A DNA stretch of 62,402 nt, taken from the IMG/VR virus record IMGVR_UViG_3300032241_001301, positions 1 through 62,402 of that record; one strand, 5' to 3'. Below the pieces are notes generated by a model. It was not told the DNA's origin, did no database searches, and saw only the letters and a program-made list of their open reading frames with translations. This DNA is from a virus. Taxonomy: Duplodnaviria > Caudoviricetes. Positions 5,406 through 59,827 of the stretch are shown piece after piece (position 1 is the first letter of the stretch; each line of letters opens with the position of its first letter). The position numbers and the translations under genes are program-made.

Positions 5406-5831
5406 TTAGGGCAGTGCATCCTTGGAAGCGGCAATCAACGTTTTGGTGTTACGGGCAATATCGTCGCCGTCGGGGGCGTATAGGACACGGCGCAGTTCTA
5501 TTTTGTGCGCCAATTCTGCTACGAGTGAGTGTTTCCAATCTTCCAAAATGTCTGGTACTTTTGAACCAAAAAATGCGTGTCCTCTGGCCAGTGCGCTGTG
5601 AGCGTCAAGCATATGGTAGTCATCAGATAAGGAACCGTGCGACGGGTCACCGTCAAAGCCCTTTGCCAAAGCGCTTTCCAGCATCGAGCGACCTTCACGA
5701 ATATCCGCTATTGCCTTTTCTTTGGTGTATTGGTTGCCGTTGAAAGCATGGCCTGCCAACTCGTACTTCAAGATTTCACTGGCGGTTTTCCAAACTGGAA
5801 CCAGTGCGTCGGTGGAGAAAGGGTTTGACAT
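5406..5831 (-). CDS. GHxFxGNQYT-motif protein C
   Basis: ILK|YELAGHAFNGNQYT; AAGGA SD overlapping the upstream stop codon. Confidence 0.78.
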   Translation of the reverse strand: MSNPFSTDALVPVWKTASEILKYELAGHAFNGNQYTKEKAIADIREGRSMLESALAKGFDGDPSHGSLSDDYHMLDAHSALARGHAFFGSKVPDILEDWKHSLVAELAHKIELRRVLYAPDGDDIARNTKTLIAASKDALP

Positions 5832-52113: not shown

Positions 52114-53112
52114 TTAGATAATGCTGTTCCAGAAGAAGCCGAGGTCGGCAGCGACAACCTTGTCGTCGAAAGCGATTTCACCTTCAACACGGTCAGCCTT
52201 GAGTTCTTCCATACGGAAGCGGCTAACACCGACGGTCGTACCAAGACCACCCGAAACACCAGTCCACATGAACGTGTAACCAGCCGAAGGGGTCATCAGA
52301 CCGGGGTTAGGAGCCGAGTAGCACAGCAAGGCGTTGGTGTTCGCCGTGAAGTTGTACGAACCAGCAACACCCTCGTCAGACGTGTTCACGACTGCCTTAG
52401 CAACCAGCACACGGTCGAGGCCGAACAACTGCGCAAGCAGGTCTTCGGTCACGATGGCACCGGCTTGGGTGTACTTGTAGCGGTCAACCAGCGTAGGGTG
52501 GGCCTTCAACTTCTGAAAGACAGGGTACGACAACACCAAGGTGTTGGGTTCGTAACCAGTGTTCTGAAGCACGGTGTACTTGGCGTACTCAACGTCCACG
52601 ATAGGCAGGGCGTTGGTGTAGTCCGACCACTTGATGGTGCTGTTCGTACCAGGAACGTAGGTAGTACCACCCGAAGAGTAGGCACCGGCTACGGCATCCG
52701 TACCCCACACGCCACCTTGGAAGAAGTCAGTCGCCCACTGAATCTCACGGCGGAGAAGCAGACGCTGGGTGACGAACTGAGTCGCTTCCATGTCGGGGTT
52801 GAGGGGGTTGTCGGCGTTAGCACGGGTCTGGTCACCAATGTCCTTGTGGAAGGCGAACACGTCGGCTTGGTAGGTGTCCGTGGTAAGACCGTAGCCTGAA
52901 CCAGCGGAAGCCGTACCGTCAGCACGACGCTGAGCCTCGTCACGGAACCAGTCGTCCTTGGTGTACTTGAAGTACAGGTTGGACTTCTTGTCAACAGGAA
53001 TCACGGGGAAAACCTTGTCGGCAATAAAGTTGTTGGTGTTCTGCAAGTACGCAACCGAGATGTTGGTCAAGATTGCGTCAATGTGAACATTGTTTACGTT
53101 GGGCTGTGGCAT
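52114..53112 (-). CDS. Major capsid protein
   Basis: HIDAILTNISVAY.....FIADKVFP..PV.K...PNTLVL......LK.HP...G.FW; strongly biased codon usage. Confidence 0.9.
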   Translation of the reverse strand: MPQPNVNNVHIDAILTNISVAYLQNTNNFIADKVFPVIPVDKKSNLYFKYTKDDWFRDEAQRRADGTASAGSGYGLTTDTYQADVFAFHKDIGDQTRANADNPLNPDMEATQFVTQRLLLRREIQWATDFFQGGVWGTDAVAGAYSSGGTTYVPGTNSTIKWSDYTNALPIVDVEYAKYTVLQNTGYEPNTLVLSYPVFQKLKAHPTLVDRYKYTQAGAIVTEDLLAQLFGLDRVLVAKAVVNTSDEGVAGSYNFTANTNALLCYSAPNPGLMTPSAGYTFMWTGVSGGLGTTVGVSRFRMEELKADRVEGEIAFDDKVVAADLGFFWNSII

Positions 53113-54780: not shown

Positions 54781-55596
54781 CTAAAAGGGGTCGTCGGCAA
54801 CCGTTGAAAACAACGGGCAAATGTTCTTAAACGAACACCACTTATCGCACAAATTGTTGGCGGTTGGTGGAAAGTATCCGGCGTTGTACCAACCCTCAAT
54901 CTTGGACCACGCTTCACGGACACGCTTTTCAGCGTAAGCCACGTCGGCATCGGTCACTTCGACGGTAAGGGTCTTTCCAAACTGGACGTAGTGAAGTTGG
55001 ATTTCGACGGGACGTTCACCTAGTTCCCGTTCGCAAAGATAGGCGTAGATTTTCGCCGGAAGGATTGCTGAAGCCTTGTACTTATCTTGTGGCACCTTGC
55101 CGGTCTTGTAGTCCACAATGACTAGTGCGCCATCAGCACGCCGGTCTAAGCGGTCTAGGATGCCACGAAGCAACCAGCCACCCATGTCGGTGTCCAACTT
55201 GATTTCGATACCCTCGGTGGTGATTTCCGTGGGGTTTTCCATCTTGAAGTAGTTGCGTATGTATTTAGCAACGTCGGCGGTAAGCGATTGTGCGCCGATT
55301 TCGTCTAGTTCCATTTCGGAAGCAATTTCGGGGGTGACTAGCGTGGGCATAAGTTTACGCATAATCGCCATTGTTAGTTCAATGGTGCGTTCGTGGGGCG
55401 TTTCCACCGTGCGCAGAAACATCTCCTCGAGGATGGCGTGGAACACGGTGCCACGGTACGTTTCCATTTTCTTTCGTTCTGGCAAACGTTCGATGGTGGA
55501 GTACTGGTATTGACGTGGGCAATTTTCGATTTGCCCTACCCGACTTGGTGATACACCATAGGGCTTTTCGCCAAGATACACGGGGGTTGCCGACAC
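54781..55596 (-). CDS. RecB/Cas4-like PD-(D/E)XK exonuclease with 4-Cys Fe-S motif
   Basis: SPS....CP..Y, GT.FH.ILE, LRGILDRLD, IVDYKTGK, CDKWCSFKNICP. Confidence 0.88.
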   Translation of the reverse strand: MSATPVYLGEKPYGVSPSRVGQIENCPRQYQYSTIERLPERKKMETYRGTVFHAILEEMFLRTVETPHERTIELTMAIMRKLMPTLVTPEIASEMELDEIGAQSLTADVAKYIRNYFKMENPTEITTEGIEIKLDTDMGGWLLRGILDRLDRRADGALVIVDYKTGKVPQDKYKASAILPAKIYAYLCERELGERPVEIQLHYVQFGKTLTVEVTDADVAYAEKRVREAWSKIEGWYNAGYFPPTANNLCDKWCSFKNICPLFSTVADDPF

Positions 55597-56209: not shown

Positions 56210-56584
56210 TCAGTGAACTTCGCCGGTGTACTTTAGCAAGTCCGTAAGCGGTGCGTCCGCCGGTGGGTTGTATTCGACTTCGGTGCGATGGTGGCAAAAC
56301 GAACATTGGATTAGCAACGGGTTCGCAACTTTGCTAACTCGCCAATCGTGTTCGCACGTCTTAGGGTCGCCCGTGTTCACCACACGTATGTTCCGGTTCT
56401 TTGCGCCGAAGGTGATTAGACCCCGTTGCTTTAGGCGCATAAGCATCACGTGAACGGACGACGTTGATTTGTACCCGACCGCCTGCATAATCGCCCGATA
56501 GGACGGTGCGCAATGAAGTTCTTTCCAGTGCCATTTGATGAATTCCAGTGCGTCCCAATCGGAGATAGGTAGTTCATTAGGCAT
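56210..56584 (-). CDS. LexA-type wHTH regulator with a C-terminal Zn finger (no peptidase domain)
   Basis: L.FI.......PSYR.I..AVG.KSTSSVH..L.RL...G.I...R.I; then CEHDW...CSFC. Confidence 0.8.
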   Translation of the reverse strand: MPNELPISDWDALEFIKWHWKELHCAPSYRAIMQAVGYKSTSSVHVMLMRLKQRGLITFGAKNRNIRVVNTGDPKTCEHDWRVSKVANPLLIQCSFCHHRTEVEYNPPADAPLTDLLKYTGEVH

Positions 56585-56642
56585 AGGTAAATAGTCTAGC
56601 GTGGTTTAGTGTGTAATGCCAAACCCCAATAAATACAAGGGG

Positions 56643-56703
56643 AAAAAGATTTCTAAAAAACTTTGCGAAATAACTTGACAATGTGACTAGACCCCTGTAT
56701 AGT
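56643..56703 (+). promoter_or_regulatory. Strong sigmaA promoter with A-tract UP element
   Basis: TTGACA (56675)-17-TATAGT (56698), preceded by TG. Confidence 0.85.
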
Positions 56704-56709
56704 TGTTTA

Positions 56710-57307
56710 TGTAGTAACCGCAGTTGCCTGATGTAAAGACCCCACAAGTAAGTGGTCGTCGGGGGCTGGGGGTGTAGTATGGCAGTATCCGGTAAGTGTG
56801 GACCTTCCTCGATGCAAAGACGCTTCTAAGGCGTTTAGGGTGGCGGAGGTACTAACTTAGAAACGGTGCTTCCGATGTGCGTTCTACGTCGGGGGTCAGT
56901 AGGTGCGGTTGTCTTTTGCAAAAGGCAACCGGCAACTATTGGCTGACAGGCGTGTGGGCTAGGTCGGGGTTGGTGCCAGGCTTATCGGGTACTGTTGAGT
57001 GGTGTGTGGTTCGTAGTGCGATTGAGAAAAGCCCTAGAAGAAGTACCAAATCGAGTGAAGAAGGTTGGGTGGAGCGAAAGTTCCTTTTTCTCAATGGCAC
57101 TACGAGCCATCACCACGCAGTATAAAATCAAAATAAAAGTTGCACGGCGCAAGTGGTGTAGCAAGCCTTGACGGTGACACTCGTAGGGGTGTCAAGCAGG
57201 TCGGGAAGTTGGAAGCGAAGCGGTTAGCCCTAGGAAACGGGAAGTCCGATAAGTAGTCCAGCGATGGTGAAGTCCCCTAGCAAACGGCTGGGGGACTTTG
57301 CTTTTTT
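56710..57307 (+). ncRNA. Large structured non-coding RNA (~600 nt; ROOL/GOLLD size class, family unassigned)
   Basis: Bounded by a consensus promoter and a terminator; no credible ORF; many G-U-containing stems and long-range pairings (see findings). Confidence 0.8.
57270..57307 (+). terminator. Intrinsic terminator of the large ncRNA
   Basis: AAGTCCCCTAGC-AAACG-GCTGGGGGACTT-TGCTTTTTT. Confidence 0.85.
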
Positions 57308-57311
57308 GGTG

Positions 57312-57420
57312 TTGATTTCCAAAATAAACAATGATAGAATTCGCCCGACAGTCTTGGGGGCGAATGGACACAACGCCAAGAACTTTCAGCCCTGCCCCTG
57401 CCGAAAGGTGGGGGCTTTGG
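57312..57420 (+). ncRNA. Putative small RNA (~70 nt) with its own promoter and terminator-like hairpin
   Basis: TTGATT-17-TAGAAT (extended TG); stem-loop exposing AAUGGACACAA; GCCCCTGCC-GAAA-GGTGGGGGC-TTT. Confidence 0.55.
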
Positions 57421-57421
57421 C

Positions 57422-57712
57422 TTACTGTTGGGTAATCCCTAGTTCCCGACGTGCTTCATCCAACAACCGTTCGGTGAAAACTGCTGGGTCATCTTCCGTT
57501 TTGGAATACGCCATTAGTCGCCCCGAAGCGATGCTGAACGCCCAGTTGTACAGGCGTAGTTCGTTCTTTAGTTCTTCAATGGTGTGGTGAAGTTCGTTGT
57601 TGTGCGCCACCATTGTGTCGTGTTGGCGTACTAGCAACTCGAGGGACTTATTGGCGGTTGATAAGTTGTTCTTTGCCGACTCGAGTTGTTCTTTGATTTC
57701 GTTCTTACGCAC
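57422..57712 (-). CDS. Hypothetical coiled-coil protein
   Basis: 96-aa ORF, last gene of the minus-strand operon. Confidence 0.62.
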   Translation of the reverse strand: MRKNEIKEQLESAKNNLSTANKSLELLVRQHDTMVAHNNELHHTIEELKNELRLYNWAFSIASGRLMAYSKTEDDPAVFTERLLDEARRELGITQQ

Positions 57713-58088: not shown

Positions 58089-59186
58089 TTATCCAAGTTC
58101 GACGGTGTTGAAGAGGGGTGCGTCACTAGTAATCCTGCTTTCTGCAAGTTTGGCGTATTCGGGGTTCAATTCTGTCCCCACAAAGTTTCTACCATACCGA
58201 AGCGCAACTACCGCCGTTGTACCAGAACCTGTAAAGGGGTCAAGGACGGTATCGCCTTCTGCTGAACCTGCCAAGACACACGGGGTAATCAAATCTTCGG
58301 GGTAAGTGGCAAAGTGCGCCCCCTTGTACGGCTTGGTGGAAACAGTCCATACGTCACGCTTATTCCGTGTTTCGTAGGACTTGGTTAGACCGCTGTGTGG
58401 TGTTAGACCCGTACCCTCGTTGTGGTACTTGCCGTTGGTGCGGTCACGGGTTCCCCAATCTTGGGCTGGTTCCTTGATTGCTTCATTATCAAAGTAATAA
58501 CGTGGTGATTTAGAAAGCAGGAAGATGTATTCGTGCGATTTTGTACAACGGTCACTAACCGATTCGGGCATTGGATTTGGTTTCGCCCAGATAATGTCCT
58601 GACGCAAAATCCAGCCATCATCTTGTAGGGCAAATGCCAAACGCCACGGAATACCAATCATGTTCTTGGCTGGCAAATCTACGCCCGATTTCACTAACGT
58701 GCCTTCCAAAGTTCCCTGACTTGTGGCTTGCTTGCTTTCGGGGTCAACATTTACCGTGCCGTCGCCATTTCTGCCTTTACCCGACCCAGCGTAGGAATCA
58801 CCAATGTTTAGCCAGACTGTTCCGTCGTCAGTAAGCACACGGCGTATTTCACGGAATAAAACAACAAGGGCTTCGACAAATTCTTCTGGTGTTTCTTCCA
58901 AGCCCATTTGTTCATCTTCACGGATAGCACCGCAACGTGGGCATACGGTCTTGTAGATAGCGTCGCCTACGGTAAGCAGTTCGTTGGCGTGACCTGTCTC
59001 GGTGGACTTGCCACGCTTGTTGTCACGCTGGTGGGTACAATCAGGGTCACCACCTTGCCAATCGCCTGTTCCATAGTCTCGTAGACCGTAATAAGGCGGT
59101 GAGGTGATGACGGTACGAACGCTTTGGTCGGGCAGTTCCTTTAGCCTGACGTTGGCATTACCTATGAGTATTTTGGCGTTGGACAC
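58089..59186 (-). CDS. DNA methyltransferase (N4-C/N6-A, beta class) with a Cys/His insertion
   Basis: TSPPY, IIWAKPNPMPES..DR.TKSHEY, HFATYP, VLDPFTGSGTT. Confidence 0.95.
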   Translation of the reverse strand: MSNAKILIGNANVRLKELPDQSVRTVITSPPYYGLRDYGTGDWQGGDPDCTHQRDNKRGKSTETGHANELLTVGDAIYKTVCPRCGAIREDEQMGLEETPEEFVEALVVLFREIRRVLTDDGTVWLNIGDSYAGSGKGRNGDGTVNVDPESKQATSQGTLEGTLVKSGVDLPAKNMIGIPWRLAFALQDDGWILRQDIIWAKPNPMPESVSDRCTKSHEYIFLLSKSPRYYFDNEAIKEPAQDWGTRDRTNGKYHNEGTGLTPHSGLTKSYETRNKRDVWTVSTKPYKGAHFATYPEDLITPCVLAGSAEGDTVLDPFTGSGTTAVVALRYGRNFVGTELNPEYAKLAESRITSDAPLFNTVELG

Positions 59187-59798: not shown

Positions 59799-59827
59799 AC
59801 TCTATCCCCGTTTAGTCACGCTGTCAA
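59799..59827 (-). promoter_or_regulatory. sigmaA promoter
   Basis: TTGACA-17-TAGAGT. Confidence 0.7.

What the first reader, a model, noticed from the sequence alone, without database searches (positions are those of the whole stretch)
56710..57307. Phage-encoded ~600-nt ornate non-coding RNA
Seen: a near-consensus promoter (TTGACA-17-TATAGT plus A-tracts) and a strong terminator enclose ~600 nt with no credible ORF, on the strand opposite the flanking genes. Stems readable by eye, many with G-U pairs that favour this strand: 56721-56733/56757-56768; CGGAGGUAC 56844/GUGCUUCCG 56866; GGUUGUCUUU-UGCA-AAAGGCAACC 56907-56930 inside GUCAGUAG/CUAUUGGC; a long arm 56990-57030/57086-57122 enclosing a GGAGC-GAAA-GUUCC tetraloop; GCAA- and GUAG-capped hairpins at 57139-57194; long-range CUUAUCGGG 56981/UCCGAUAAG 57245; and 5' UAACCGC 56715/GCGGUUA 57220 (pseudoknot-like). 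Known: large ornate RNAs of this size class (ROOL, GOLLD) occur in phages and their function is unresolved. Inference: this is a divergent member or a new class, here without flanking tRNAs.
Basis: partly seen in the sequence, partly recalled or inferred. Interest (0 to 1): 0.88.

Follow-up and report, generated by a model that had tools for sequence, protein, structure and literature searches.

The report
New modular structured RNA of lake phages
An uncultivated tailed phage carries a stand-alone gene for a heavily folded, about 600-base non-coding RNA that belongs to a small, uncatalogued family built from swappable folded modules; what it does is still unknown.

Summary
The feature is real. 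A near-consensus promoter (56675-56703) and a strong terminator (57266-57307) enclose a 597-nt plus-strand unit, antisense to all neighbouring genes. It folds far better than shuffles (z -10.9, against -4.15 for the other strand). No Rfam family matches it, GOLLD and ROOL included.

I found 12 distinct full-length relatives (240-597 nt) in related uncultivated phage contigs, each with its own promoter and terminator. They are mosaics. A 5' hairpin module (H1) and a 128-nt 3' domain of three hairpins are kept. The window's central 356 nt (domain M plus a long arm) is an optional insert at a fixed swap site. Compensatory changes support H1, domain M and the 3' domain (11 of 38 pairs in the 3' domain).

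The fold is a chain of seven local domains, not one nested giant.

The unit sits at different genome sites in different phages, so it behaves as a movable accessory cassette. I found no RT, TnpB, integrase or co-occurring phage protein.

Best reading: a new family of trans-acting scaffold or decoy RNA. Expression and function are untested. This scan has noted other uncatalogued modular phage RNAs, but none shares this sequence.

The parts
56675..56703 (+). Sigma-70-type promoter TTGACA-17-TATAGT; the inferred start is near 56710-56711.
   Evidence: 11 of 12 matches. Every family version has TTGAC(A/T) or TTGCTT, a 17-18 nt spacer and a TAnnnT-like -10 at the same distance from the RNA (read by eye). 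A look-alike promoter lies on the minus strand at 59827.
56711..56780 (+). 5' module H1: outer stem 56721-56733/56757-56768, an 8-nt internal loop UAAAGACC (56734-56741), and hairpin CCAC-AAGUAA-GUGG (56742-56755).
   Evidence: MFE. Alignment A2 of 9 sequences of types A, B and C: 10 pairs, 96.7% of cells paired, 3 pairs with both-side changes, slid controls 0. CM R1 scores 90 bits here and finds a single copy in the window.
56782..56995 (+). Domain M, an optional central domain closed by helix 56787-56797/56980-56990. It holds the GCUUCUAAGGC hairpin, the CGGAGG/CUUCCG hairpin, the palindromic UGCA hairpin and the GCGUUCUACGUCG/GGCGUGUGGGC helix.
   Evidence: Homologous to the 5' two-thirds of type D RNAs (L060, L062). 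RNAalifold on 3 sequences predicts 72 pairs, 18 with both-side changes. The domain is absent from L048 and L049, and contigs of runs X2, X5 and X15 skip it.
56996..57119 (+). Long arm L: a ~124-nt near-perfect hairpin with a small branch capped by GGAGC-GAAA-GUUCC.
   Evidence: MFE. Seen only in the window's version, so there is no comparative support.
57120..57135 (+). A/U-rich single-stranded linker. Its 3' edge (57136) is the fixed right border of the swap site.
   Evidence: Joints 56779->57136 (X2, X5) and 56791->57136 (X15) in contigs of other runs; alignment A1.
57136..57263 (+). Constant 3' domain of 128 nt. H3 (57139-57162) has a GNRA loop. H4 (57167-57205) has a GUAG loop. H5 (57208-57262) is a rod with two 4x4 purine-rich internal loops and the apical loop UAGGAAAC.
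   Evidence: A3 (5 sequences): 38 pairs, 98.9% paired, 3 compensatory pairs, 7 pairs with one-sided (mostly wobble) changes. A4 (8 sequences, fitted to CM R2): 97.6% paired, 11 pairs with both-side changes, 0 of 500 shuffles reach this, slid controls give 0-2. The H3 loop is GCAA, GUAA or GAAA across versions.
57266..57307 (+). Intrinsic terminator: a 16-bp stem followed by U6.
   Evidence: Every full-length relative ends in a comparable G+C hairpin plus U-run.

Best explanation
This is the gene for a member of a previously uncatalogued family of modular, highly structured non-coding RNAs. The family is carried by a group of related uncultivated tailed phages. The host RNA polymerase would start at the sigma-70-type promoter and stop at the intrinsic terminator, giving a free 597-nt RNA. 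That RNA folds as a chain of autonomous domains: H1, domain M, arm L, the three hairpins H3-H5, and the terminator. H1 and the 3' domain are the kept parts. A fixed junction between them (56779/56791 to 57136) accepts interchangeable inserts. I think the RNA acts in trans as a stable scaffold or decoy. On this reading its invariant unpaired motifs are binding surfaces for a host or core phage protein, or for other RNA. These motifs are the H1 internal loop UAAAGNCC, the H3 GNRA loop, the H4 GUAG loop, and the H5 purine-rich internal loops with the GGAAAC-containing loop. The inserts would then add or tune contacts. Shown: the promoter and terminator signals, the strand, the fold, covariation, modularity, and mobility of the cassette. 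Inferred: that it is transcribed, that it acts in trans, and that it binds a partner. I rate 'real structured ncRNA family' at about 0.9 and the scaffold/decoy mechanism at about 0.35 to 0.4. The figure below is for the combined statement.
For: Signals and fold. In all 9 versions tested, z is more negative on the RNA strand (-2.2 to -9.1) than on the reverse strand (-0.1 to -4.2). Family: there are 12 distinct full-length versions plus 1 partial. Of the 14 metagenome stretches that match the H1 pattern, 13 are family members. Covariation: H1 has 3 of 10 pairs compensatory; the 3' domain has 11 of 38 (3 of 38 in the unfitted 5-sequence alignment); domain M has 18 of 72. One-sided changes are mostly G-U to A-U or G-C, which keeps pairing only on the plus strand. 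The GNRA loop identity is kept while its letters change. No ORF is conserved. Cassette behaviour: the gap between the 96-aa gene and the LexA-like gene is 837 nt here and about 620 nt in G001, but only about 80-90 nt in L023 and L025-27. In other phages the RNA sits beside different genes, always antisense to them. No antisense target of more than chance length lies in the window, which argues for a structure-based rather than a base-pairing function. No phage gene co-occurs with the RNA: 0 of 59 window ORFs are present in all four RNA-positive records and absent from all RNA-negative ones. That points to a host or core partner, if there is one.
Against: No expression data exist: no RNA run is listed for this DNA. 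Alignments are shallow (3 to 9 sequences from a few lineages), so the covariation reflects few independent events. A4 was fitted to the model, which favours pairing. Types B and C keep only part of the 3' domain (H5, or an H5-like GGGAAACGGG.AGUCC motif), and type D lacks H1. So no single element is strictly universal, and 'one family' rests on overlapping shared modules. Most related phage records show no copy: CM R1 hit 4 of 22 and R2 hit 4 of 24. The RNA is therefore dispensable, though many of those records are fragments. Nothing identifies a partner, so the scaffold/decoy mechanism is inference by exclusion.
Confidence: 0.5

Rival explanations
1. It is an RNA-only self-assembling particle like ROOL and GOLLD. 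The constant 3' domain and H1 would provide intermolecular contacts, and the RNA would form a homo-oligomer that encloses or displays something.
For: It is a large phage RNA rich in GNRA and other tetraloops. Like GOLLD, it has a conserved 3' region and a variable upstream part (passages of PMC12286853). The GNRA loop of H3 is kept as a class, as expected for a docking loop. The window's version has a palindromic hairpin at 56897-56941. No protein partner co-occurs.
Against: I found no conserved self-complementary loop or receptor motif by eye. The fold is beads on a string rather than a compact multi-pseudoknot core. The palindromic hairpin is not kept in type D. No experiment has been done.
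Confidence: 0.15
2. The unit works in cis. Strong convergent transcription and a bidirectional terminator would insulate or interfere with minus-strand operons, and the RNA product would be a by-product whose structure only serves stability.
For: The unit is always antisense to the flanking genes. It is divergent from the LexA-like gene here, and its 3' end abuts or overlaps by a few bases the end of the convergent gene in L031 and L038. Its promoter class recurs at 59827 on the other strand.
Against: Compensatory changes and invariant loop sequences in H1, M and H3-H5 show selection on the RNA fold itself. The cassette keeps its RNA modules while moving between unrelated genome sites.
Confidence: 0.1
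3. It is a very divergent GOLLD or ROOL (or other catalogued large RNA) that the Rfam models miss.
For: Same kind of carrier (phages), similar size in this window, and a lake-type origin for some GOLLD RNAs. Arthrobacter and Microbacterium phages have the nearest capsid proteins among cultured phages.
Against: cmscan with permissive filters lists no GOLLD, ROOL, OLE, raiA or HEARO hit even at E<=10 on 1001 bases. The same holds at E<=1 on five loci carrying other versions. There is no tRNA in the window.
Confidence: 0.04
4. It is the RNA part of a mobile or enzyme-guided system: a retron or DGR template, an omega/reRNA of TnpB or IscB, an intron remnant or a ribozyme.
For: Variable middle between constant ends; the cassette sits at different sites in different phages.
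Against: No RVT_1 (0 of 5 records). No TnpB-type domain (0 of 5). No tyrosine integrase (0 of 5). No intron or ribozyme family in Rfam matches. The variable part is itself a folded domain, not a guide-like stretch.
Confidence: 0.05
5. It encodes one or more small proteins, and the fold is incidental.
For: ORFs of 82, 58 and 38 aa lie on the plus strand. The 38-aa TTG frame over H3-H5 stays open in all type A versions.
Against: No ATG ORF of 20 aa or more is present in 10 of 12 versions. The 82-aa frame lies wholly in the optional insert. The 38-aa frame loses its start in L038 and type D. Substitutions follow base-pairing rules.
Confidence: 0.03

Closest known systems
GOLLD RNA (Rfam RF01998)
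   Same: A large structured RNA carried by phages and prophages, function unknown. Its 3' region is conserved and its 5' region varies (PMC12286853, passages read). The RNA here has a constant 3' domain and variable upstream modules.
   Different: No match to the Rfam model even at E<=10. It is smaller (240-597 nt against often more than 800). It is not next to tRNA genes in the window. Its fold is a chain of local hairpin domains.
ROOL RNA (Rfam RF03087)
   Same: A phage-borne RNA of about 600 nt with its own transcription signals and no known protein partner or function.
   Different: No Rfam match. No pseudoknot is supported here. No tRNA island is present. The family is known so far only from a small set of related uncultivated phage contigs.
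[quoted passage not shown]
   Same: A phage non-coding region driven by a strong promoter, rich in insertions and deletions between relatives, with no conserved ORF and an unknown role (passages read). This is the nearest analogue in behaviour.
   Different: No sequence or structure similarity. blastn of the window's RNA against 50,697 phage records found nothing. CMs R1 and R2 scored at most 8.7 and 5.7 bits on the D29 right end. The D29 region is a leader at the genome end, not a terminated cassette antisense to its neighbours.
Other uncatalogued modular phage ncRNAs noted by this scan (e.g. e1-6034101, e1-3412426, e1-5884494)
   Same: Promoter-to-terminator units in uncultivated phages that fold as chains of reusable modules and match no Rfam family.
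   Different: None shares sequence words with this RNA. These are unchecked AI notes, not published families.

Membership tests
GOLLD (RF01998) | Match to the Rfam covariance model at or above the gathering score. | tested here: not met
   0 hits at gathering score in the whole window. Not listed even at E<=10 in 56500-57500, nor at E<=1 in 5 loci with other versions.
GOLLD (RF01998) | Frequent position in or next to tRNA gene islands. | tested here: not met
   ARAGORN finds 0 tRNA or tmRNA genes in the 62,402-base window. One relative (L041) has a tRNA about 2 kb away.
ROOL (RF03087) | Match to the Rfam covariance model at or above the gathering score. | tested here: not met
   no hit.
ROOL/GOLLD kind | Homo-oligomeric RNA-only assembly (cryo-EM nanocage). 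| not testable with these tools
   Needs in vitro transcription and native gel or cryo-EM. Described for ROOL and GOLLD in PMC12286853.
OLE, HEARO/omega RNA, tmRNA, RNase P, group I/II introns, 6S, SRP | Match to the respective Rfam models. For tmRNA, also detection by ARAGORN. For omega/reRNA, also a linked TnpB/IscB gene. | tested here: not met
   (Rfam). (ARAGORN). (PF07282 in 0 of 5 records).
Retron msr-msd / DGR template | A linked reverse transcriptase gene. | tested here: not met
   RVT_1 (PF00078) in 0 of 5 records, including one estimated 87% complete. The records are fragments, so absence is not absolute.
Cluster A mycobacteriophage Pleft non-coding RNA | Sequence or structure similarity to the L5/D29 right-end transcript. 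| tested here: not met
The new family described here (working definition) | Own sigma-70-type promoter and intrinsic terminator; H1 and/or the H3-H5 domain with the GGAAAC/GGAAAA...AGUCC motif; antisense to its neighbours. | tested here: met
   In the window, R1 scores 90 bits and R2 scores 155.5 bits. Promoter and terminator.

The most novel reading that the evidence does not exclude
The constant parts (H1 plus the H3-H5 domain) form an assembly or effector core, and the fixed swap site carries interchangeable structured 'cargo' domains. This would be a natural plug-and-play RNA scaffold. Related phages would re-equip it by recombination, either to retarget a host factor (for example as an anti-defence decoy) or to build RNA-only multimers of different geometry, as GOLLD and ROOL do.
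Probability: 0.15. Interest if true: 0.85.

Novelty: new variant of a known kind. Interest (0 to 1): 0.58.

Why it matters
Large structured phage RNAs (GOLLD, ROOL) have solved structures, but their function is still unknown (PMC12286853). An independent family would give a second, simpler system for asking what such RNAs do. Three features make this one useful. It has a compact constant domain of 128 nt. It has natural versions from 240 to 597 nt. Its swap site is precisely delimited, so natural deletion and replacement variants already exist. The 265-nt and 597-nt forms are ready-made constructs for cryo-EM, SHAPE and pull-downs. The limits are plain. The family is known from only a handful of related, uncultivated phages. 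The host is unknown, and no expression data exist.

Tried and rejected
1. Known families. Rfam at gathering score and at permissive E-values gave nothing. The best hit, rnk_pseudo at 21 bits against a gathering score of 55, is just the terminator hairpin.

2. GenBank phages. blastn with word size 11 gave no match.

3. Expression. No RNA holder was listed for this DNA, so expression could not be examined. All four runs I laid are DNA contigs.

4. Bacterial genomes. One scan of genome contigs with the H1 pattern gave one stretch, in a Planctomycetota MAG (L039). One metagenome stretch (L043) is similar. Neither has a promoter, a terminator or any further likeness, and I treat both as chance. No host is inferred.

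5. Antisense target. The best plus-sense repeat of the RNA elsewhere in the window is 17 nt at 94% (E 0.45), so none is significant.

6. Partner protein by co-occurrence. None of 59 window ORFs tracks the presence of the RNA across 8 larger related records. The records are fragments, so this test is weak.

7. Temperate lifestyle. No tyrosine integrase in 5 records. Serine integrases were not tested.

9. Motifs by eye. I looked for sarcin-ricin, kink-turn and 11-nt receptor motifs in H1 and H5. None fits consistently, and this rests on recalled consensus motifs, not on a tool.

10. Literature. Three word searches found no description of this family. Word searches cannot find an RNA by sequence.

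11. Mycobacteriophage D29 right end. No similarity.

Full report
WHAT THE WINDOW IS. The window is a whole IMG/VR virus record of 62,402 bases, linear, and about 50% complete by CheckV. It encodes a tailed phage. The genes include:
- a major head protein (52114-53112), a scaffold protein and tail proteins;
- two giant fibre-like proteins of 4497 and 2525 aa, the second collagen-like;
- an SNF2 helicase;
- a PD-(D/E)XK exonuclease (54781-55596);
- a protein with a LexA-type DNA-binding domain (56210-56584);
- an N6/N4 DNA methylase (58089-59186).

All of these lie on the minus strand. The nearest capsid proteins among cultured phages are about 50% identical and come from Arthrobacter and Microbacterium phages. 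The host is unknown.

THE OBSERVATION. The promoter-like site TTGACA-17-TATAGT (56675-56703) matches 11 of 12 consensus positions. The terminator (stem 57266-57302, 16 pairs, then T6) is strong.

The 598 nt between them fold at -269.3 kcal/mol. Dinucleotide shuffles give -197.6 +/- 6.6, so z is -10.9, and none of 100 shuffles folds as well. The reverse complement gives -171.7 and z -4.15. My own shuffles agree. Thirty-nine of the 200 MFE pairs are G-U, which fits the plus strand as the RNA.

The window holds no tRNA or tmRNA gene and no Rfam family at gathering score. At E<=10 only four sub-threshold chance hits appear. The plus-strand ORFs inside (82, 58 and 38 aa, none starting with ATG) are not conserved in relatives.

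RELATIVES. I searched with the two flanking proteins, the exonuclease, short conserved RNA patterns and two covariance models of my own. These brought in 12 distinct full-length versions and one version cut by a contig end. Each has a TTGAC(A/T)-type promoter at the same distance and a G+C hairpin with a U-run at the end (read by eye). Each lies antisense to its flanking genes.

The versions fall into four types:
- Type A: the window (597 nt), L048 (the G001 version, 379 nt), L049 and L045 (265 nt).
- Type B: L031 (300 nt); L051, L042 and L046 (335 nt); L038 (446 nt).
- Type C: L041 (240 nt).
- Type D: L060 and L062 (421 and 422 nt).

The looser H1 pattern gave 14 metagenome stretches, of which 13 are family members. 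The single hit in 185,579 species genomes looks like chance.

MOSAIC ARCHITECTURE. The window's MFE is a string of seven side-by-side domains:
- H1: 56711-56780
- domain M: 56782-56995
- arm L: 56996-57119
- H3: 57139-57162
- H4: 57167-57205
- H5: 57208-57262
- terminator: 57266-57302

Against G001, the first 70 nt and the last ~180 nt are 95-97% identical. The central ~350 nt, however, is replaced by ~130 unrelated letters that are themselves well folded. In L049 the middle is almost absent.

Contigs of other public runs show the same borders. X2 and X5 join 56779 to 57136 with 138 other letters between. X15 joins 56791 to 57136 with 16 letters. X14 carries yet another middle. So there is a fixed swap site between H1 and the 3' domain.

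The window's insert is not junk. Domain M is homologous to the 5' two-thirds of the type D RNAs, which lack H1. L038 combines a type B 5' half with the type A 3' domain. Types B and C keep H1 plus H5 or an H5-like motif.

COMPARATIVE SUPPORT FOR THE FOLD.
- H1 (9 sequences): 10 pairs, 96.7% of cells paired. Three pairs of the lower stem change on both sides between type A and types B/C. Slid controls give 0.
- 3' domain, unfitted alignment of 5 sequences with no indel: 38 pairs, 98.9% paired, 3 compensatory pairs, 7 pairs with one-sided changes.
- 3' domain, 8 sequences fitted to the model: 97.6% paired, 11 pairs with both-side changes. None of 500 shuffles reaches this, and slid registers give 0-2. 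Fitting to the model favours the structure, and the sequences come from few lineages, so this is solid but not deep evidence.
- The H3 loop is GCAA, GUAA or GAAA, so it is kept as a GNRA loop. The GUAG loop of H4, the two 4x4 internal loops and the GGAAAC/GGAAAA loop of H5 are nearly invariant.
- Domain M (3 sequences): 72 predicted pairs, 18 with both-side changes.

CUUAUCGGG (56981) closes domain M by pairing with 56787-56797. In type D the U-to-C change in that strand is matched by an A-to-G change in the 5' partner, not in the 57245 motif. The UAACCGC/GCGGUUA pseudoknot is possible only in type A, where neither side varies. It has no equivalent in L038. Both contacts are therefore unsupported.

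CASSETTE BEHAVIOUR. In relatives the order is 96-aa gene, LexA-like gene, 140-aa gene, exonuclease. The gap between the first two is about 80-90 nt in L023 and L025-27, about 620 nt in G001 and 837 nt here. In other lineages the RNA sits elsewhere:
- in L049, between the exonuclease side and the LexA-like gene;
- in L031 and L038, next to a phrog_2859/DUF3626 protein;
- in L041, convergent with the small terminase gene.

CM R1 found H1 in 4 of 22 related records. R2 found the 3' domain in 4 of 24, one of them the type D copy in a record 87% complete. The RNA is thus an accessory, movable unit, although many of those records are fragments.

WHAT IT IS NOT. There is no reverse transcriptase, TnpB-type domain or tyrosine integrase in up to five records. 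No intron, ribozyme, tmRNA, RNase P, 6S, SRP, OLE, HEARO, ROOL or GOLLD model matches. The RNA shows no similarity to the abundant Pleft non-coding transcript of mycobacteriophage D29. No antisense target lies in the window. No phage ORF co-occurs with the RNA.

MOST LIKELY MECHANISM. The signals predict a free, terminated, very stable RNA made by the host polymerase. Selection acts on local helices and on a few invariant unpaired motifs, not on long complementarity. Whole domains can be added or removed without touching the constant parts. That pattern fits a trans-acting scaffold or decoy: the constant hairpins would bind a host or core phage factor, or other RNA copies, and the inserts would add or tune contacts.

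This mechanism is inferred, at about 0.35-0.4. The statement that this is a real, new structured-RNA family I rate at about 0.9.

The rivals are RNA-only self-assembly as in ROOL and GOLLD, a cis-acting transcriptional insulator, a missed known family, a mobile or enzyme-guided RNA, and a small-protein gene. They are weighed in their own section.

COMPARISON AND NOVELTY. In kind, this is closest to GOLLD and ROOL. Those are phage-borne, large, structured, of unknown function, and GOLLD likewise has a constant 3' region and a variable 5' region (PMC12286853, passages read). Membership in either family fails the model test.

In behaviour, it resembles the indel-rich, strongly transcribed non-coding region of Cluster A mycobacteriophages (PMC5712189, passages read), but without any similarity.

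This scan has already noted several other uncatalogued modular phage RNAs on other DNA. None shares sequence with this one. So the general phenomenon is recurrent, while this family and its clean swap site are new as far as my three word searches of the literature go.

Noticed in passing
57312-57420 (+): A second small unit directly after the large RNA. It has promoter-like TTGATT-17-TAGAAT, a short structured RNA with the motif UGGACACAACGCC, and a GAAA-capped terminator (57394-57415). The same unit, with its own promoter, is present in relatives that lack the large RNA (L010, L019, L024), so it is a separate and more widely kept small RNA. Earlier notes e1-6328497 and e1-6028464 read it as an antisense regulator of a lysin leader.
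   Followed up: partly
59827 (-) and 56675 (+): The RNA's promoter belongs to a class with a shared spacer (TTGACA-n-GTGACTA-AC...) and a shared initial transcribed sequence (GTT(T)ATGTA). A second copy on the minus strand at 59827 heads the operon with the methylase. In contigs of runs X5 and X15 the same promoter piece (56669-56712) is followed by unrelated DNA (loose ends). The RNA may therefore be co-regulated with one temporal class of genes.
   Followed up: no
L060:1960-2130 (-) and L060:1340-1460 (-): In the type D phage (G010), the RNA is preceded by another promoter of the same class driving a ~40-codon acidic ORF. It is followed by a further promoter-like site and a short hairpin-rich stretch. 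Together these make an island of small plus-sense units antisense to the structural genes.
   Followed up: no
L062:4700-4960 and 5435-5600 (+): About 1.8 kb without a minus-strand gene surrounds the D2 RNA. The flanks look G-rich and hairpin-rich and may hold further non-coding RNAs.
   Followed up: no
56897-56941: The UGCA-capped hairpin of domain M is a near-perfect DNA palindrome: it matches its own reverse complement at 83%. It could form an intermolecular duplex. It is not kept in type D.
   Followed up: partly
L041:4169-4239 (+): A tRNA gene (64.4 bits) lies about 2 kb from the type C RNA. It is the only tRNA seen near any family member.
   Followed up: no
56210-56584 (-): The gene divergent from the RNA promoter encodes a 124-aa protein with a LexA-type winged-helix domain (PF01726, 1.5e-09). 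The peptide words of its C-terminal part are rich in Cys and His. It is a candidate regulator of the shared intergenic promoters.
   Followed up: no
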